DNA from: Escherichia phage MRostami-2023b
Sequence record: OQ031492
Direction: 5' to 3' (one strand)
DNA: 64,000 bases
In this document: one piece after another, positions 15,363 through 61,825 of the stretch
Layout: each line of letters opens with the position of its first letter
Position numbering within the stretch: position 1 is the first letter of the stretch
Position numbers and translations under genes: made by a program
Notes under the pieces: model-generated
What the model was told of the DNA's origin: nothing
The model's database searches: none
Seen by the model: the letters and a program-made list of their open reading frames with translations, nothing else

Positions 15363-15410
15363 TCTTCTCCTANNNNNNNNNAGAAACTCCTTAAAAAGCA
15401 ATAGGTTAGA

Positions 15411-18400
15411 CTAATGGCAACTGGCCCAGGAATTTCCCACGTCATATCCAGCAGTAAGCTGAACATTAAGATTGTAAAATTCTCCAGCCTTAGTAACAGC
15501 TAAAGCAGCAAGTTCACCTGCCCGACTATAAGCTGTAAACCATCCACCTTTGGGAGATTCATGAATGTTAGCCCAAATTTGCCCTGTCTCTTTTTCCTTA
15601 TTATGCTTCCATTCTTCGACTTTAGCAAGGCATTCTTTATCAATTTTCTTTTGTTCTTCAGGATCGTCTACTTTCTTCCAACCTAATGATTCAGGTGAAA
15701 ACCATTTGAATTCTACAAGGTTACGAGAAACTTCAAGCTGGGCTTCATCGTGGTATGCAATCATTTGTTGCACGAAGTCTTTATTCTTCCAGTCATCTTT
15801 AAAGAAGTCAACACTTAGCCCTTCTTCTTCGATCATGTCATCATAAATAACCATTGCACGTTTAGCACAGATAACCCCACCGCTTTGGAACAGAGAGTTA
15901 AGAATCGCGTGAGCAGAACGAGTAGGAACCTTACGACCGTCAATACCCAAAACATATTGTTTACCAGTCTTAACCCAAAAATCGTTTAAACGTTCTTTAA
16001 GACGCGCCAATGGGAATGCAGCTTCCCAGAAAGCATCAAACACCAATTGACCTGTAAACTTATCGCTACCAATTGTTTTAGCAACCTTGTCGGCTTGTGC
16101 ACCATAGGTAATACCATACTTAACAGATTTAGCAGGACTACGTTCAAATTTACGTCCAATAGTTTCAGTGATACGTTTTGCCATCATTGTGTGAACATCG
16201 TTAGGTTTCTCTAACAACAGAGCGTTACAATATTCGTGTGGCTCCGGCTCGTACCGCCAACAGTTNNNNNNNNNNNNNNNNNNNNNNNNNNNNNNNNNNN
16301 NNNNNNNNNNNNNNNNNNNNNNNNNNNNNNNNNNNNNNNNNNNNNNNNNNNNNNNNNNNNNNNNNNNNNNNNNNNNNNNNNNNNNNNNNNNNNNNNNNNN
16401 NNNNNNNNNNNNNNNNNNNNNNNNNNNNNNNNNNNNNNNNNNNNNNNNNNNNNNNNNNNNNNNNNNNNNNNNNNNNNNNNNNNNNNNNNNNNNNNNNNNN
16501 NNNNNNNNNNNNNNNNNNNNNNNNNNNNNNNNNNNNNNNNNNNNNNNNNNNNNNNNNNNNNNNNNNNNNNNNNNNNNNNNNNNNNNNNNNNNNNNNNNNN
16601 NNNNNNNNNNNNNNNNNNNNNNNNNNNNNNNNNNNNNNNNNNNNNNNNNNNNNNNNNNNNNNNNNNNNNNNNNNNNNNNNNNNNNNNNNNNNNNNNNNNN
16701 NNNNNNNNNNNNNNNNNNNNNNNNNNNNNNNNNNNNNNNNNNNNNNNNNNNNNNNNNNNNNNNNNNNNNNNNNNNNNNNNNNNNNNNNNNNNNNNNNNNN
16801 NNNNNNNNNNNNNNNNNNNNNNNNNNNNNNNNNNNNNNNNNNNNNNNNNNNNNNNNNNNNNNNNNNNNNNNNNNNNNNNNNNNNNNNNNNNNNNNNNNNN
16901 NNNNNNNNNNNNNNNNNNNNNNNNNNNNNNNNNNNNNNNNNNNNNNNNNNNNNNNNNNNNNNNNNNNNNNNNNNNNNNNNNNNNNNATCGCCAAACAGTA
17001 GTGTGATTCAATTTTTGCTTCCAAAGAGTCGAAGTCGTAGCCGATCTGGAAGTATTTAGGAACTTCTACACCAAACAAGTTACGCATCTCCCATCCAAAC
17101 AAAGATGTGACACGAGGAATATTAGCTACAGATCTATGCTTCATACGAGAGGTTGCAGCATCACATGTAGCGGCTGGGGTAGGAATACGCCCATCCGCCC
17201 TTACTGCGGCTAAGAAACCTTTGTCATATTCTTGATCTTCCTCATCTTCTTCCCAATCAGCACCACCGCCTAAAATAGAGTTTCTACGATGCTTATACGT
17301 TAAGTATTCTACAATCTGTGTAGCATAAGGGAATTTCTCACCTAAAGCTTGCAGGTTAGGACAGATTTCTTTTTCCTGACCTTTGGTAAAACATGGGTTA
17401 GTCAATACTTTAAGACCGCGACCCTTACCTTTTGCTATACGCTCTTGAATCTTCCTTTCCAAGGTTTCCGGTGTGCACTCCAGATGATCACAACGGTCCT
17501 GACAAAAATTAGAAGATAGAGTTTGCTCAACGTAAGCTCGAATACCTTTCTGAAGTTCTTCCTCGCTCTTTTTAATCTTGGTGCCAGATTTAAGAGTCAA
17601 GTCTTTATCTTTATATTCAGACGGTACCCAACCTAATCCTACAAGCCAGTTTTTAATATGGGTTGTATCGTTCAATGTTGCAGGGATGTTAGGATCACAC
17701 AGAGGCTCATCTGCTGCAACTGGCAGTTTCCACTCTTTCCCCAACATAACTAACCACCAATCGCCATCCCTCTCTTCCAAATGACCATCATGTTTCTTAG
17801 CAAAATTGATCATATGGTTAGTTGGCTCTAAGTTCTTTTTAATTTGCAACTTAGGTGGAATAAAAGCTTTAAGATAACCTTTTGTTGCTGGTTTAGGTGG
17901 CAAAATAGGCTCAACGAGTAAACGAAGACGCTCCATTTCTGCATCCAAAAAAGCAAGGTTCTCTTCTGCTTGTTTCATGTTAAAAGCAAACCCACGGTGT
18001 TCCTGGCGTGTAATAATGTCTGCTACACGTTGTTCAAGTTCAAATGGACCTTCCCATTTATCATAATCACCCCATTCTTCCATAAGGTAATTATATACGC
18101 TCGTATTGGCTTTGTTGTCATAGATACAGTAATAAAGCATATCCGCAGCAAAAGTCTTAAATCGATCTTCTTCTGGAATCTCTTTACGGAAATCTATTTT
18201 TACATCACCACCTGCTTTTCGAGAAAGTGCTGCCAAGCTATGTCCTGATTTGCCCTCAATCTTTCGATCTGGGTTTAACACTTTACTCAAAATCAAGGAG
18301 TCAATAAGTTTTACCTTATTTTTGCCCCACGTATTATATTTAACACTGTAATCTAATCCATAAAACAGTTTTGTAGCCAACCAGTCGTAGTTGATACCGT

Positions 18401-29350: not shown

Positions 29351-29544
29351 TACAAACCCTCCTTCAGATTATCAAGAGCTACAGTGGTTTCACAAAATTC
29401 TCCATAAGCTTTATGATGTTCCAGAAAAGCTTCGGGTCCACCCCAGTCATTATCTTGTGTATTCCAGCCATCAATAAAAGCATCTTCAATGATTGTGATC
29501 AGTTCTTGTCGAGTCAACTGGANNNNNNNNNNNNNNNNNNNGTA

Positions 29545-35839: not shown

Positions 35840-36488
35840 TTACAATTTCTCCTCTTTTAAGTTTCTCTAGTAAGTCGTTAGGGTTCTTAATATGACAGAA
35901 GTTAAATCCTAAGTCAACACATTTTCCATCATATTCTTCACTATCGCCTACGTGCAACACTTCGTGCCCTAACAGAGGGATCGGAGAATACGTGAGCGTG
36001 CGAGCAAAGAATCGCGGATCTGGTTTACAAAGTAAAGCTTCATCCGAGAAATGGGTGAACTCAAAACAATTCCAACTATCAAACTTACAAGCACGACGCA
36101 GGATATCCCCTGATATGAAGTTGGTATTGCTCTTAATACTCAAATCATAACGCCCCGAAAGATACAGCAAGTACATCGGTAGATCCACAGCTACATGAGG
36201 TGGAAACTTAAGGAACCATTGTTCACACTCGAAACGNNNNNNNNNNNNNNNNNNNNNNNNNNNNNNNNNNNNNNNNNNNNNNNNNNNNNNNNNNNNNNNN
36301 NNNNNNNNNNNNNNNNNNNNNNNNNNNNNNNNNNNNNNNNNNNNNNNNNNNNNNNNNNNNNNNNNNNNNNNNNNNNNNNNNNNNNNNNNNNNNNNNNNNN
36401 NNNNNNNNNNNNNNNNNNNNNNNNNNNNNNNNNNNTTTGCAGTGATCAGTGTGTTCCATACATCAAAAGAGATATGTTTAATAGTCAT
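35832..36488 (-). CDS. HAD-superfamily hydrolase-like protein (interior masked by N)
   Basis: N-terminal ISFDVWNTLI (motif I-like), later KPDP and GDS; 199 N inside. Confidence 0.4.
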   Translation of the reverse strand: MTIKHISFDVWNTLITAXXXXXXXXXXXXXXXXXXXXXXXXXXXXXXXXXXXXXXXXXXXXXXXXXXXXXXXXXXXXXXXXXXXRFECEQWFLKFPPHVAVDLPMYLLYLSGRYDLSIKSNTNFISGDILRRACKFDSWNCFEFTHFSDEALLCKPDPRFFARTLTYSPIPLLGHEVLHVGDSEEYDGKCVDLGFNFCHIKNPNDLLEKLKRGEIVNA

Positions 36489-45098: not shown

Positions 45099-45454
45099 TT
45101 TTCCTCCTTTTTGTATTCAATGAACATATCTGCATAGTAAGCTTTACGTTCTTCAAATTTAGCAGGGTTTACCACAATGAAAANNNNNNNNNNNNNNNNN
45201 NNNNNNNNNNNNNNNNNNNNNNNNNNNNNNNNNNNNNNNNNNNNNNNNNNNNNNNNNNNNNNNNNNNNNNNNNNNNNNNNNNNNNNNNNNNNNNNNNNNN
45301 NNNNNNNNNNNNNNNNNNNNNNNNNNNNNNNNNNNNNNNNNNNNNNNNNNNNNNNNNNNNNNNNNNNNNNNNNNNNNNNNNNNNNNNNNNNNNNNNNNNN
45401 NNNNNNNNNNNNNNNNNNNNNNNNNNNNNNNNNNNNNNNNNNNNCTTTGCTCAT
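45095..45454 (-). CDS. Hypothetical protein, mostly masked by N
   Basis: Only termini readable. Confidence 0.25.
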   Translation of the reverse strand: MSKXXXXXXXXXXXXXXXXXXXXXXXXXXXXXXXXXXXXXXXXXXXXXXXXXXXXXXXXXXXXXXXXXXXXXXXXXXXXXXXXXXXXXXXXFIVVNPAKFEERKAYYADMFIEYKKEEK

Positions 45455-47249: not shown

Positions 47250-47421
47250 GGTATGCTATCACAGGTGCCAAGTCAAAATAAAAATGACCATTGATAACAG
47301 CTATCGTGCCATTGCGTGTTTTGTTAACTTCACAGAATCCCTTCTTGCCGTTTGCCATGATTACAAGCCACTCTCCGATAGGAACATCCTCGGTACCAGA
47401 TACTTTAATCCATCCACTCAC
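47209..47421 (-). CDS. Hypothetical protein
   Basis: 70 aa ORF. Confidence 0.3.
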   Translation of the reverse strand: MSGWIKVSGTEDVPIGEWLVIMANGKKGFCEVNKTRNGTIAVINGHFYFDLAPVIAYHALPTYEEEINNG

Positions 47422-47678
47422 TTTACTTCCCCTTTGTAATCGGACACTATACCAGGTCTTACTTTTGCCTTAAGATGTTTCAACTCTGCCATAGGAGTTG
47501 CTACTTGTATAAGGTTAATAATTTCAACCTCGTAGATAGTATACTCATAACCCGCATACTTCCCGATGGAATGCAGGTATTTGATAGCATGTTCAGGTGA
47601 ATCTGCTTCAACATACCCCAAATCTTTTGTAGTGCGGCCTTCACAGTCGCCTTCTGTAGTTACGTGATAAAGTGTCAT
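47418..47678 (-). CDS. Hypothetical protein
   Basis: 86 aa ORF. Confidence 0.35.
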   Translation of the reverse strand: MTLYHVTTEGDCEGRTTKDLGYVEADSPEHAIKYLHSIGKYAGYEYTIYEVEIINLIQVATPMAELKHLKAKVRPGIVSDYKGEVK

Positions 47679-47998
47679 AAAACCTCCTCCTTGTTGGCTG
47701 CTTCAATCATAGCGTTAAGAGTCTCCATACCACTTTCAACTGCTTGAGCAATCTCTTGGAACACAGTTTTCTTAAAGATGTATAAAGATCCTGCCTGTAA
47801 GCGTTGCACACAGCATAAGATGGTTTGGTGATCCATAACAAAATCACCATAAGCACAATCAATTTTCCCTGTGATTNNNNNNNNNNNNNNNNNNNNNNNN
47901 NNNNNNNNNNNNNNNNNNNNNNNNNNNNNNNNNNNNNNNNNNNNNNNNNNNNNNNNNNNNNNNNNNNNAATTGACACGCTAAACAGACTGTTTGACAT
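47675..47998 (-). CDS. Hypothetical protein (92 N inside)
   Basis: 107 codons incl. masked part. Confidence 0.3.
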   Translation of the reverse strand: MSNSLFSVSIXXXXXXXXXXXXXXXXXXXXXXXXXXXXXXXITGKIDCAYGDFVMDHQTILCCVQRLQAGSLYIFKKTVFQEIAQAVESGMETLNAMIEAANKEEVL

Positions 47999-48144
47999 TA
48001 AACCTCCTCATAGTAAGGTAAAGCCTTGATCAGTTGTTCTGAAGTGCCATTTTGCACCCACGTAACACCCTTGTCAAGAGAAACATACCCTTTCTTATTG
48101 ATAAATTTACGGAGACAACCAGTGAACTTGTTTTTGTAGATCAT
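47998..48144 (-). CDS. Hypothetical small protein (not in ORF table)
   Basis: 48 aa MIYKNKFTGCLRKFINKKGYVSLDKGVTWVQNG…; TAATG and ATGA overlaps. Confidence 0.3.
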   Translation of the reverse strand: MIYKNKFTGCLRKFINKKGYVSLDKGVTWVQNGTSEQLIKALPYYEEV

Positions 48145-48575
48145 TTCTTCTTTCCTTTCTTTAATTTGTTGTGACCTTTACCCTTATAAAGCTTGTGATT
48201 ACGAGCAGACGGGTTATTTTGGTTCTCCAGTCGGCTAACAGGTGTATTCCAAAGGTTTCCTGCTACAAAAGATGCTGCCACAAGTTCTTCCAGGTATACA
48301 AAATCCAAAGCAGGTATCTTTGTTTCCCTCCTCTCGTGTTCTACATTAGACAACACACCTTCTTCCTTACTGTCTTCTTTTTCAATTACAGACCAACCCT
48401 CTTCCTGCCAAGCTTCCCCTCTGAACCAAGTTTCCATGTTATAACCTTGTTCGTCGAGAATAACACCATCTCGCATTTCAAACCATTCGCCACCACAAAA
48501 ATGGCGGTGCTCAACACGTCTACCTTCCTTCATTGCTTCTTTAGCTTCGGGCCAAGTCAGTTTGATGTTTTGCAT
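48141..48575 (-). CDS. DUF2829-like protein with Lys-rich C-terminal tail
   Basis: N-terminal LTWPEAKEAMKEGRRVEHRHFCGGEWF resembles FxEAlxalKxGKRVxRxxW motif of DUF2829 phage proteins. Confidence 0.4.
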   Translation of the reverse strand: MQNIKLTWPEAKEAMKEGRRVEHRHFCGGEWFEMRDGVILDEQGYNMETWFRGEAWQEEGWSVIEKEDSKEEGVLSNVEHERRETKIPALDFVYLEELVAASFVAGNLWNTPVSRLENQNNPSARNHKLYKGKGHNKLKKGKKK

Positions 48576-48689
48576 TTGTTTTCTCCTTTTGTTTGGTAGG
48601 AGTTGATCTTAACAAGATTAAAAAGTATGTCAATACTTGATCTGAAATTATTTTCAGGTATCATGTATGAACATTAACAAGAGAGGTAG

Positions 48690-48983
48690 ATGATGAACAT
48701 TACTTTAGCAACTAAGAATATTTCTGAAACAATTAACGGTTTTGGTGTGATTGTAGCCTTGCACGGTAACAATGAGAAATGGTTGGCTTCTTTTGAAGAG
48801 GATCGTCAACACAACATTATTTTAGATGCTCCTATAAAAGTTATGCATATCGTTGGTGAAAGCAAAGTGCTTACTTCCTCCCGTTCAAAAGAACAAATTA
48901 CAAATGAATTAGTAAAACTGCTTGACAATGTTCTTAACATGTTTGATAATGCACCCATCGACACAAAACGTGTCTTAATGTGA
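48690..48983 (+). CDS. Hypothetical protein
   Basis: 97 aa, first gene of plus-strand block. Confidence 0.4.
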   Translation: MMNITLATKNISETINGFGVIVALHGNNEKWLASFEEDRQHNIILDAPIKVMHIVGESKVLTSSRSKEQITNELVKLLDNVLNMFDNAPIDTKRVLM

Positions 48984-48995
48984 AAGGAGAACCAA

Positions 48996-49283
48996 ATGTA
49001 TTATTCACAAGACGAAGTAGCAAACATTAAACTGGCAGTTGGCGATCTTATTGTGTCACCTAACTACTATTGGGATAACACAGATTTGGTTGAAGTAGTA
49101 ACCTATGTTGGAGTTGAAGGTATTGTGCTCTACACACTAGGTGGAGGTGTTGTTGGGGAAATGGAACGTTATACGACAACGAAGAAACTGGTAAGCTCTT
49201 ATCACATGTTTTTACACCAAGGTTCGGAAGAGTATACAGCTTTCTTGTTGAAATTAGATGCAGATCGGGAGAAGGCACGATGA
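48996..49283 (+). CDS. Hypothetical protein
   Basis: 95 aa, RBS aaaggaga. Confidence 0.4.
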   Translation: MYYSQDEVANIKLAVGDLIVSPNYYWDNTDLVEVVTYVGVEGIVLYTLGGGVVGEMERYTTTKKLVSSYHMFLHQGSEEYTAFLLKLDADREKAR

Positions 49284-52282: not shown

Positions 52283-53191
52283 NNNNNNNNNNNNNNNNNN
52301 NNNNNNNNNNNNNNNNNNNNNNNNNNNNNNNNNNNNNNNNNNNNNNNNNNNNNNNNNNNNNNNNNNNNNNNNNNNNNNNNNNNNNNNNNNNNNNNNNNNN
52401 NNNNNNNNNNNNNNNNNNNNNNNNNNNNNNNNNNNNNNNNNNNNNNNNNNNNNNNNNNNNNNNNNNNNNNNNNNNNNNNNNNNNNNNNNNNNNNNNNNNN
52501 NNNNNNNNNNNNNNNNNNNNNNNNNNNNNNNNNNNNNNNNNNNNNNNNNNNNNNNNNNNNNNNNNNNNNNNNNNNNNNNNNNNNNNNNNNNNNNNNNNNN
52601 NNNNNNNNNNNNNNNNNNNNNNNNNNNNNNNNNNNNNNNNNNNNNNNNNNNNNNNNNNNNNNNNNNNNNNNNNNNNNNNNNNNNNNNNNNNNNNNNNNNN
52701 NNNNNNNNNNNNNNNNNNNNNNNNNNNNNNNNNNNNNNNNNNNNNNNNNNNNNNNNNNNNNNNNNNNNNNNNNNNNNNNNNNNNNNNNNNNNNNNNNNNN
52801 NNNNNNNNNNNNNNNNNNNNNNNNNNNNNNNNNNNNNNNNNNNNNNNNNNNNNNNNNNNNNNNNNNNNNNNNNNNNNNNNNNNNNNNNNNNNNNNNNNNN
52901 NNNNNNNNNNNNNNNNNNNNNNNNNNNNNNNNNNNNNNNNNNNNNNNNNNNNNNNNNNNNNNNNNNNNNNNNNNNNNNNNNNNNNNNNNNNNNNNNNNNN
53001 NNNNNNNNNNNNNNNNNNNNNNNNNNNNNNNNNNNNNNNNNNNNNNNNNNNNNNNNNNNNNNNNNNNNNNNNNNNNNNNNNNNNNNNNNNNNNNNNNNNN
53101 NNNNNNNNNNNNNNNNNNNNNNNNNNNNNNNNNNNNNNNNNNNNNNNNNNNNNNNNNNNNNNNNNNNNNNNNNNNNNNNNNNNNNNNNNNN
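52283..53191. other. Masked sequence (909 N)
   Basis: N run; content unknowable. Confidence 0.9.
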
Positions 53192-55420: not shown

Positions 55421-55687
55421 TTATTTTTTGTTTTCTTGCCAGGTCAGGACACCTAGCCAAAAATGAATATCACCTTTTCCCCAATGTGGTATATTGCTTT
55501 CNNNNNNNNNACTGCAAGCCCATAGATAACCATTTGCGAACGTATCAAAATGATCTATATCCTCGACCTTATAATCTGATAGGTTGAGAACGGTTTCAAC
55601 CTTTAAGCCCGTTGCGCTTGCTACCTGGTGCACCGTGCCGCCTTGCCAGCCCAATGAGTGCATAAGGTGTAATGTAGTATTTGTCAT
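55421..55687 (-). CDS. Hypothetical protein divergent from the early-gene array (8 N inside)
   Basis: 88 aa ORF; possible TTGCTA-17-TATCAT promoter upstream. Confidence 0.3.
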   Translation of the reverse strand: MTNTTLHLMHSLGWQGGTVHQVASATGLKVETVLNLSDYKVEDIDHFDTFANGYLWACSXXXESNIPHWGKGDIHFWLGVLTWQENKK

Positions 55688-58828: not shown

Positions 58829-59056
58829 ATGGCTATCAATATTGTTCGCGTATCCGGCACCGTTGGCACTTCACAGGTTATTGCAGTCGTCACNNNNNNN
58901 NNNNNNNNNNNNNNNNNNNNNNCCTTGAATAAGTGGGCTATTGCTAATTTTGGGGAATATGCAAGCGTCGAGTACATCGAATCCTACCAGGTGCCAACCA
59001 TCAGCCTAACCGATCTCAACGTTGATCGCCTGTTATGCCTGGATGAATTAATCTGA
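58829..59056 (+). CDS. Small early-type protein (39 N inside)
   Basis: 75 codons incl. masked part. Confidence 0.3.
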   Translation: MAINIVRVSGTVGTSQVIAVVXXXXXXXXXXXLNKWAIANFGEYASVEYIESYQVPTISLTDLNVDRLLCLDELI

Positions 59057-59143: not shown

Positions 59144-59339
59144 ATGNNNNNNNNNNNNNNNNNNNNNNNNNNNNNNNNNNNNNNNNNNNNNNNNNNNNNN
59201 NNNNNNNNNNNNNNNNNNNNNNNNNNNNNNNNNNNNNNNNNNNNNNNNNNNNNNNNNNNNNNNNNNNNNNNNNNNNNNNNNNNNNNNNNNNNNNNNNNNN
59301 NNNNNNNNNNNNNNNNNNNNNNNNNTTATAAAATAAAGC
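59144..59339 (+). CDS. Small ORF, start only; remainder masked
   Basis: ATG after agaagagagattatc RBS; 179 N follow. Confidence 0.2.
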
Positions 59340-61551: not shown

Positions 61552-61825
61552 NNNNNNNNNNNNNNNNNNNNNNNNNNNNNNNNNNNNNNNNNNNNNNNNN
61601 NNNNNNNNNNNNNNNNNNNNNNNNNNNNNNNNNNNNNNNNNNNNNNNNNNNNNNNNNNNNNNNNNNNNNNNNNNNNNNNNNNNNNNNNNNNNNNNNNNNN
61701 NNNNNNNNNNNNNNNNNNNNNNNNNNNNNNNNNNNNNNNNNNNNNNNNNNNNNNNNNNNNNNNNNNNNNNNNNNNNNNNNNNNNNNNNNNNNNNNNNNNN
61801 NNNNNNNNNNNNNNNNNNNNNNNNN
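61552..61825. other. Masked sequence (274 N) bounded by near-identical promoter-leader copies
   Basis: Both flanks read attattatttatcacgtagggcgag. Confidence 0.8.

What the first reader, a model, noticed from the sequence alone, without database searches (positions are those of the whole stretch)
48141..48575. DUF2829-like protein, possible immune-signal sponge
The N-terminal motif resembles DUF2829, a family that includes Tad2-type proteins which sequester cyclic-nucleotide immune signals. This copy carries an unusual Lys-rich C-terminal tail and is the last gene of the long minus-strand block.
Basis: inference. Interest (0 to 1): 0.55.

Follow-up and report, generated by a model that had tools for sequence, protein, structure and literature searches.

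The report
Minimal Tad2-fold phage protein, basic tail
This early gene of a large E. coli phage encodes a stripped-down, highly diverged relative of the Tad2 "immune-signal sponge" fold, fused to a conserved basic C-terminal module; it lacks the residues Tad2 uses to bind its ligands, so it is a plausible but untested counter-defence protein.

Summary
The ORF at 48141-48575 (minus strand, 144 aa) is real, conserved and under purifying selection. The window is a Phapecoctavirus (phAPEC8-like coliphage), and the gene is the phAPEC8_00241 homolog.

The domain is a minimal 65-aa Tad2 core. It has no β2-β3 insertion, and the ligand motifs GWNG and W-x-x-S-x-x-D are replaced by a family-specific signature (H23, F26, E30, E42, G44, W61). 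At least 177 clusters share this domain, mostly as 60-70-aa stand-alone phage proteins.

The C-terminal ~55 aa, ending in an invariant KGxGHNKLxKxKKK, is a separate module. It also occurs on an unrelated 102-aa Mydovirus protein.

In transcription order the gene is the first, not the last, of the minus-strand block. Sponge function is plausible but unproven, and a canonical gcADPR pocket is not supported. I rate it a new variant of a known kind, of moderate interest.

The parts
48141..48575 (-). CDS, 144 aa (phAPEC8_00241 / ASO2A_246 homolog; phrog_22208). The stop TGA at 48141-48143 overlaps the ATG of the next gene (ATGA).
   Evidence: dN/dS 0.24
48378..48575 (-). Residues 1-66: minimal Tad2/DUF2829-fold domain. 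Helix 8-16, strands 20-23, 32-35, 38-41, short helix 55-58, strand 61-64. Acidic (pI 4.9), with 9 aromatic residues. Family signature: A11, G18, H23, F26, E30, E42, G44, G60, W61.
48306..48377 (-). Residues 67-90: acidic linker, variable in length and predicted disordered.
   Evidence: alignments; pLDDT 55-59; pI 4.8
48144..48305 (-). Residues 91-144: C-terminal module. It has a conserved helix D-[FY]-x-x-L-E..A-A-S-F (93-103), a spacer and a basic end. It is homologous to the C-terminal half of the unrelated 102-aa Mydovirus protein phrog_27594.
   Evidence: BLASTP E 2e-4 over 45 aa, plus the tail
48144..48185 (-). Residues 131-144: KGKGHNKLKKGKKK. The motif K-G-x-G-H-N-K-L-x-K-x-K-K-K is invariant even in homologs of 37-48% identity.
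   Evidence: invariant columns; synonymous-only variation; found at a C-terminus in only two protein families across viral, metagenome and genome collections
48583..48588 (-). Shine-Dalgarno AAGGAG, 7 nt upstream of the ATG.
   Evidence: read directly from the sequence
48606..48633 (-). Sigma70-type promoter-like site: TTGACA, 16 nt spacer, (TGT)TAAGAT. 10 of 12 matches plus an extended -10 TG. A promoter is annotated at the same place in phage ASO2A.
   Evidence: consensus match only; no transcript data

Best explanation
SHOWN. The gene encodes a two-module protein of a phAPEC8-like coliphage.
- Module 1 (aa 1-66) is a minimal, highly diverged member of the Tad2/DUF2829 fold superfamily: helix alpha1 plus the antiparallel sheet, with the beta2-beta3 insertion reduced to a tight hairpin.
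- Module 2 (aa ~91-144) is a mostly disordered, lineage-restricted module ending in the invariant basic peptide KGxGHNKLxKxKKK. In Mydovirus phages it sits on a separate 102-aa protein encoded about 800 bp from a stand-alone copy of module 1.
- The gene lies immediately downstream of a host-type promoter at the head of a block of small accessory genes.

INFERRED (most likely mechanism). Module 1 is made early and acts as a small ligand-binding counter-defence protein of the sponge type. It would use the same face as Tad2: the beta1-beta2 loop, the beta3-beta4 turn and the loop before the last strand. All of its most conserved residues sit in these elements: H23, F26, E30, E42, G44, Y45, W50 and W56. 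The chemistry is re-tooled, though. The aromatic residues are kept (W25->F26, W73->W50), while Asn, Ser and Asp are replaced by His, Glu and Glu. Its ligand is therefore probably not bound the way Tad2 binds 3'cADPR, and may be a different nucleotide-derived signal.

Module 2 is a second, separable functional unit, fused as other sponge domains are fused to each other. It either tethers the protein to a polyanionic site (nucleic acid or the inner-membrane surface) or binds a host partner.
For: Fold and homology:
- AF2 model with pLDDT 95-98, built from an MSA that contains no canonical Tad2.
- Foldseek: 11 of the top 12 hits are Tad2, TM up to 0.63.
- hhalign 93.5% probability.
- 51 of 142 relatives hit PF11195 weakly.
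- A profile of the close family has SptTad2 as its top PDB hit.

Functional precedent: every characterised protein of this fold is a signal sponge, and the family switches ligands readily (3'cADPR, His-ADPR, N7-cADPR, cyclic dinucleotides, cUMP).

Context:
- Promoter-proximal gene after a sigma70-like promoter.
- The stand-alone homolog in the T5-like phage Seafire lies inside the terminal repeat, which in T5-like phages is the pre-early (first-step-transfer) region.
- Patchy distribution as a 60-70-aa accessory protein in 469 phage records and at least 177 50%-identity clusters.
- Purifying selection.

Residues and fusion logic:
- The aromatic positions equivalent to Tad2 W25 and W73 are conserved.
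- Sponge domains are commonly fused to other anti-defence modules.
- Module 2 is separable.
Against: - The polar ligand contacts of Tad2 (N26, S76, T78, D79; HgmTad2 N22, S90, T92, D93) are not conserved.
- The insertion that provides the alpha2 dimer interface and the cyclic-dinucleotide pocket is absent, so even the tetramer cannot be assumed.
- Pfam, NCBIfam and PADLOC give nothing.
- The deep family profile does not retrieve Tad2 from PDB sequences.
- The domain is acidic (pI 4.9).
- Family members carry C-terminal appendages unusual for sponges: basic tails, SEC-C motifs, TM anchors.
- All neighbours are of unknown function.
- There is no experimental or literature evidence for this family.
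Confidence: 0.4

Rival explanations
1. It is a host-takeover or inhibitor protein, not a sponge. The Tad2-like core is a small scaffold that binds a protein (or nucleic acid) through its conserved acidic and aromatic face. The C-terminal module localises it to the nucleoid, RNA, the ribosome or the inner membrane. The target is a host factor, not a small signalling molecule.
For: - The canonical ligand residues and the oligomerisation insertion are lost.
- The acidic domain is paired with an invariant basic tail.
- Other family members carry SEC-C motifs (4), tail-anchor TM helices (2), other basic ends and Cys motifs. This looks like a domain delivered to different cellular sites.
- The C-module is predicted disordered, as partner-binding linear motifs usually are.
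- In some alleles (P0015, P0026) the N-domain carries an internal deletion while the C-module is intact.
Against: - No precedent for a non-sponge function in this fold, apart from the unexplained AcrIIA7 phenotype.
- Half of the family (65 of 133 representatives) is the bare 60-70-aa domain without any appendage.
- The conserved residues sit on the elements that form the Tad2 ligand pocket (inference).
Confidence: 0.35
2. It is a canonical Tad2: a homotetramer that sequesters 1''-3'/1''-2' gcADPR (and perhaps cyclic dinucleotides) and blocks type I Thoeris or CBASS.
For: Tad2 fold; early position; aromatic residues retained at the positions of W25 and W73.
Against: - The invariant R-x-GWNG and W-x-x-S-x-x-D motifs of all bona fide and all solved Tad2 proteins are absent.
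- The insertion that forms the dimer interface and the cyclic-dinucleotide pocket is absent.
- It falls below the Pfam threshold.
Confidence: 0.1
3. The similarity is chance, or the ORF is a decaying or non-functional remnant.
For: Individual sequence E-values to Tad2 are weak; Foldseek E-values are 0.3-1.
Against: - Independent methods converge on Tad2.
- The ORF is conserved in more than 100 phages with dN/dS 0.24, and the tail shows only synonymous change.
- A strong RBS and a promoter-like site are present.
Confidence: 0.02

Closest known systems
Tad2 (Thoeris anti-defence 2; SPO1 gp34.65, ModTad2; Pfam PF11195 Tad2-like/DUF2829)
   Different: 65 aa instead of about 89. There is no beta2-beta3 insertion or alpha2. 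GWNG is replaced by H-[YH]-F-x-x-x-E, and S-x-T-D is lost. There are new invariant residues H23, E30 and E42. It is not detected by the Pfam model. It carries an extra C-terminal module. Oligomeric state and ligand are unknown.
AcrIIA7 / HgmTad2 (PDB 8kbi, 8wjc)
   Different: HgmTad2 has a 41-residue insertion that forms the cyclic-dinucleotide pocket, and it has the canonical W21/N22 and S90/T92/D93 gcADPR site. Neither is present here.
PHROG 3474 (about 64-aa stand-alone proteins of Vequintavirinae/Mydovirus, Felix-O1-like, T5-like and T4-like Klebsiella phages; unknown function)
   Same: Clear homologs of residues 4-65 (E 5e-30). In Mydovirus the synteny is the same, followed by the same MIYKN... 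gene.
   Different: They stop after the domain. The window protein continues into a linker plus the C-module.
PHROG 27594 (102-aa Mydovirus protein, e.g. Klebsiella phages KB57, BIS47, Mydo)
   Same: It shares the C-terminal ~55 aa, including ...Y-x-x-F-K-I-x-KGRGHNKLKK-K(n), and lies in the same early gene cluster.
   Different: Its N-terminal 45 aa are unrelated to the Tad2 fold.
Fused sponge proteins (Tad2-Acb4, Tad2-Sequestin/PF21825)
   Same: The architecture principle is the same: a Tad2-type domain fused to a second short module that also exists as a stand-alone gene.
   Different: The partner here matches no Pfam family, including PF21825 and PF13876. It is basic and predicted disordered, not a folded helical sponge.

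Membership tests
Pfam PF11195 (Tad2-like / DUF2829) | Score at or above the curated gathering threshold (25 bits) of the family HMM | tested here: not met
   No hit for the window protein even at E<=10. 51 of 142 relatives hit only weakly, best E 2.9e-4; the one bit score I have is P0124 at 18.8 bits, below the 25-bit cut-off.
Tad2 superfamily (fold level) | [quoted passage not shown] | tested here: met
Tad2 (functional family) | GWNG motif in the beta1-beta2 loop (SPO1 W25/N26; HgmTad2 W21/N22/G23), which contacts the gcADPR diphosphate | tested here: not met
   The motif is invariant in 11 bona fide and all solved Tad2 proteins. Here the sequence is H25-F26-C27-G28-G29. The family consensus is Y-F-[TSC]-x-[DG]-E.
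Tad2 (functional family) | W-x-x-S-x-(T)-D motif before the last strand (SPO1 W73, S76, T78, D79) | tested here: not met
   Only the Trp (W50) is kept. S, T and D are replaced by R52-G53-E54-A55-W56.
Tad2 (functional family) | beta2-beta3 insertion carrying helix alpha2 (V-shaped dimer interface; cyclic-dinucleotide pocket in long forms) | tested here: not met
   The model shows strands 32-35 and 38-41 joined by a 2-residue turn. The insertion is described.
Tad2 (functional family) | Homotetramer with ligand pockets at protomer interfaces | not testable with these tools
   Only single-chain prediction was available, so there is no multimer modelling.
Tad2 (functional family) | Binds and sequesters gcADPR or another immune signal; rescues phage from Thoeris, CBASS or Pycsar | not testable with these tools
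   This needs biochemistry and plaque assays.
PHROG 22208 / PHROG 3474 | Significant full-length match to the family profile | tested here: met
   phrog_22208: E 3.1e-98, residues 1-144 against profile positions 4-147 of 147. phrog_3474: E 4.8e-30, residues 4-65.
SEC-C motif proteins (PF02810) | C-x-C-x-S-G-x-K-[FY]-K-x-C-C zinc motif at the C-terminus | tested here: not met
   Present in 4 other family members but not in the window protein, whose tail has no Cys.

The most novel reading that the evidence does not exclude
The gene represents a large clade of 'mini-Tad2' proteins that Pfam does not detect (at least 177 clusters at 50% identity). The clade is spread over T5-like (pre-early region), rV5/Mydovirus-like, Felix-O1-like, T4-like Klebsiella and phAPEC8-like phages. 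Its re-tooled His/Glu/Glu plus aromatic pocket would sequester an immune signal that canonical Tad2 does not handle, possibly one not yet identified. The fused KGxGHNKL module would be a previously unrecognised, separable counter-defence or targeting element. Following the fusion logic that uncovered Sequestin, this would flag the Mydovirus 102-aa protein as a new anti-defence candidate.
Probability: 0.25. Interest if true: 0.72.

Novelty: new variant of a known kind. Interest (0 to 1): 0.45.

Why it matters
Tad2 is one of the most widespread phage sponge families, and recent work shows that its members keep acquiring new ligand specificities.

A whole sub-family that keeps the fold but has replaced every polar ligand contact, and that current HMM-based anti-defence finders miss, would matter in two ways. 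It would enlarge the known repertoire of sponges in therapeutic-type coliphages and Klebsiella phages. It could also point to a signal or defence system not yet matched to a sponge.

The portable basic C-module gives a concrete second-module hypothesis. It can be tested by deletion, localisation and pull-down.

If the domain turns out not to bind small molecules, that would be the first evidence that the Tad2 fold has been co-opted for another job.

Tried and rejected
- Direct Pfam, NCBIfam, PADLOC and PDB-sequence searches with the single protein found nothing.
- The deep 142-sequence profile against PDB sequences returned no Tad2 hit, only noise at E>0.9. The close-family hit to SptTad2 (E 0.098) is therefore weak on its own.
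- The first AF2 model, from a 19-sequence MSA, was mediocre (pLDDT 67). It gave Tad2 top hits only at E 0.24 and was superseded by the deeper model.
- The word-indexed protein search with the tail profile returned only 3 fragments of the same family. Two earlier attempts failed on parameter limits.
- DNA-pattern scans for the tail in viral, metagenome and genome collections found no third family. The other matches were out of frame or internal chance matches.
- A weak phrog_21279 match of the 102-aa protein (E 0.002) was not followed up.
- No paralog of the mini-domain and no canonical DUF2829 is present elsewhere in the window.
- The ten neighbouring genes gave only unknown-function PHROGs, plus DUF7325 and Phage_tudor. 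There is no recognisable anti-defence island.
- Literature searches for the motif, the PHROG ids and Phapecoctavirus early genes gave nothing specific. The supplement of the Tad2-diversity paper is not held.
- A 2489-aa protein with Tudor, Agenet, SAM and EF-hand domains, apparently eukaryotic, hit the family profile in 15 stretches. I treated this as small-beta-barrel or compositional cross-talk, not homology.
- I considered resemblances of the tail to an AT-hook, uL15, the SmpB tail or the SecA C-terminal tail from memory only. None was tested, and none is claimed.

Full report
**What is there.** The window is a phAPEC8-like coliphage of the genus Phapecoctavirus (subfamily Stephanstirmvirinae). 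The 3 kb around the finding is 97.9% identical to Escherichia phage ECML-183-2 and similar to more than 100 related records. An ATG-initiated ORF of 144 aa occupies exactly 48141-48575 on the minus strand. An AAGGAG Shine-Dalgarno lies 7 nt upstream. The TGA stop overlaps the ATG of the next small gene.

The exact protein is in public collections. Members of its 90%-identity cluster, for example phAPEC8_00241, are all named 'hypothetical protein'. It matches phrog_22208 over its full length (E 3e-98). Its first 65 residues match phrog_3474 (E 5e-30). Both PHROGs are of unknown function.

Against a 74%-identical homolog, dN/dS is 0.24. In the last 19 codons there are 5 synonymous and 0 non-synonymous differences, so the tail is constrained as a peptide and not only as DNA.

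**Position.** Minus-strand ORFs run from before 20 kb up to 48575, and plus-strand ORFs start at 48690. The gene is therefore last by coordinate but first in transcription order.

The 114-bp divergent intergenic region holds a sigma70-like site for the minus strand: TTGACA, 16 nt, an extended -10 TGT-TAAGAT, 10 of 12 matches, at 48633-48606. A promoter is annotated at the same place in phage ASO2A. Early, host-RNAP-driven expression is inferred from this, not shown.

**Is it DUF2829-like?** Pfam's PF11195 (now called Tad2-like) does not detect the protein, even at E<=10. A single-sequence search of PDB sequences found nothing.

Four independent lines nevertheless point to Tad2:
1. A profile of the close family has SptTad2 as its best PDB hit. 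It aligns both the N-terminal helix motif and the C-terminal W...W motif, but weakly (E 0.098).
2. An exhaustive HMM search found 177 clusters (50% identity) with E<=1e-3, mostly 59-70-aa stand-alone proteins. Of 142 of these scanned against Pfam, 51 gave sub-threshold hits to PF11195 (best E 2.9e-4). The next most frequent family had 7.
3. hhalign of this family against 11 bona fide DUF2829 proteins, which I collected from phage records and which include the SPO1-type Tad2, gave 93.5% probability and P 2.3e-7.

One caveat: the deep profile did not pull Tad2 out of PDB sequences.

I conclude that the N-terminal domain is a genuine but remote member of the Tad2 fold superfamily and lies outside the Pfam family as currently defined.

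**How it differs from Tad2.** All 11 bona fide DUF2829 proteins I aligned and all solved Tad2 proteins share invariant R-x-G-W-N-G and W-x-x-S-x-x-D...D-W motifs. Published structures show what these do. W25, N26, W73 and D79 of SPO1 Tad2 make the gcADPR contacts, as do W21, N22, S90, T92 and D93 of HgmTad2. The beta2-beta3 insertion supplies the alpha2 dimer interface and, in long forms, the cyclic-dinucleotide pocket.

In the window protein the insertion is a two-residue turn. The two aromatic positions persist: W25 aligns with F26 (95% conserved in the family) and W73 aligns with W50. N26, S76, T78 and D79 have no counterpart.

The family has its own near-invariant set instead: A11, G18, H23 (86%), F26, E30 (99%), E42 (95%), G44, G60 and W61. 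By secondary-structure correspondence, these polar residues lie in the beta1-beta2 loop and the beta3-beta4 turn. Those are the elements that line the Tad2 pocket. This is an inference, because I had no coordinates to superimpose. The domain is acidic (pI 4.9) and has 9 aromatic residues in 66.

**The C-terminal half.** Residues 67-90 form an acidic linker of variable length. Residues 91-144 hold one conserved helix (D-[FY]-x-x-L-E..AASF) and end in KGKGHNKLKKGKKK. The pattern K-G-x-G-H-N-K-L-x-K-x-K-K-K is invariant even in homologs of only 37-48% identity from Klebsiella Stephanstirmvirinae. AlphaFold gives this half pLDDT 49-68.

I scanned the viral, metagenome and genome collections with degenerate DNA patterns for the tail. 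It occurs at a C-terminus in only two protein families: this one, and a 102-aa protein of Mydovirus phages (phrog_27594; Klebsiella phages KB57, BIS47, Mydo and others). The N-terminal 45 aa of that protein are unrelated. Its C-terminal ~55 aa align with the C-module of the distant fused clade (BLASTP E 2e-4 over 45 aa, plus the tail).

In Mydovirus, a stand-alone 63-aa copy of the mini-Tad2 domain is followed by the same small 'MIYKN...' gene as in the window. The 102-aa tail protein lies about 800 bp further along the same cluster. The window gene thus looks like a fusion of two modules that are separate neighbours elsewhere. That is a Rosetta-stone hint that they act together.

Other members of the domain family carry other C-terminal appendages: SEC-C motifs (4), other basic ends, two tail-anchor TM helices and several Cys motifs. 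65 of 133 representatives are the bare domain.

**Context elsewhere.** The domain is found in 469 phage records (Klebsiella 169, Escherichia 132, Salmonella 73, among others). In the T5-like Salmonella phage Seafire, the 65-aa homolog is the last gene inside the terminal repeat. In T5-like phages this is the pre-early, first-step-transfer region devoted to host shut-off (established knowledge). The ten neighbouring genes in the window are all of unknown function.

**Mechanism.** My preferred reading (confidence about 0.4) is an early-expressed, sponge-type ligand binder. It would use the Tad2 face with changed chemistry, fused to a second separable module that localises it or adds a second activity. 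Three things support this: all characterised proteins of the fold are sponges, the family is known to switch ligands, and sponge domains are often fused to other short modules.

The main rival (about 0.35) is a non-sponge adaptor or inhibitor that binds a macromolecule. It is favoured by the loss of every polar ligand contact and of the oligomerisation insertion, and by the localisation-like appendages.

Chance similarity or a decaying ORF is effectively excluded.

**Novelty and verdict.** No paper or curated family describes this domain family or the tail. It is a new variant of a known kind: Tad2 fold, non-canonical pocket, new C-module. Interest is moderate. It would rise considerably if a ligand or a defence target were found.

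Noticed in passing
window 15373-15381, 16266-16986, 29523-29541, 36237-36435, 45184-45444, 47877-47968, 52283-53191, 55502-55510, 58894-58922, 59147-59325, 61552-61825: There are eleven runs of N (2701 bases in all). One lies inside the gene two positions downstream of the finding (47675-47998), so that protein cannot be read completely.
   Followed up: no
window 47998-48144 (-): A 48-aa gene (phrog_2381, 'MIYKNKF...') is translationally coupled to the finding through an ATGA overlap. The same gene directly follows the stand-alone mini-Tad2 gene in Mydovirus (L015 3313-3495), so the pair is syntenic across subfamilies.
   Followed up: partly
window 47418-47678 (-); L015 2791-3153: A small protein with a conserved 'TTEGDCEGRTTK' N-terminus (phrog_12401) is shared by the Phapecoctavirus and Mydovirus early clusters. 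Its function is unknown.
   Followed up: no
window 48690-48983 (+) and 48996-49283 (+): The first two genes of the divergent plus-strand block are a DUF7325 protein (E 5e-24) and a 'Phage_tudor' domain protein (E 8e-25).
   Followed up: no
L015 4986-5597 (+): In Mydovirus, a 203-aa ORF just downstream of the tail protein looks by eye like a macro-domain (ADP-ribose-binding) protein (GHGCNCF...GSGIA). I did not check it with an HMM. If true, it is an ADPR-related function next to the mini-Tad2 cluster.
   Followed up: no
proteins P0015, P0026, P0021, P0045: Some phages carry alleles in which the mini-Tad2 domain has a 13-15-aa internal deletion, or lacks its first third, while the C-module stays intact. 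One allele is a truncated 60-aa form. These may be decaying N-domains, or the C-module may function on its own.
   Followed up: partly
protein P0056 (2489 aa) and P0088 (2128 aa): A giant protein with Tudor, Agenet, SAM and EF-hand domains, apparently eukaryotic, matches the family profile in 15 stretches (E 9e-8). This is probably small-beta-barrel or compositional cross-talk rather than homology.
   Followed up: partly
L026 161-655 (Dorea phage DO134P1): This 164-aa protein has a canonical Tad2 domain preceded by a short DUF2829-like half (FDKAFKIMKQGSKVKLPSWGG...EWVLAD). It is another example of shortened Tad2-like units.
   Followed up: no
Records labelled Acinetobacter phage vB_AbaM_ABPW7, several Campylobacter phages and 'Dompiswa phage TSP7_1' are 97% identical to this coliphage region. 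Their host labels look doubtful.
   Followed up: no
literature: AntiDefenseFinder reports Atd1 (anti-TIR, MazG-like) in Phapecoctavirus, so this genus is already known to carry counter-measures against TIR signalling. I did not locate Atd1 in the window.
   Followed up: no
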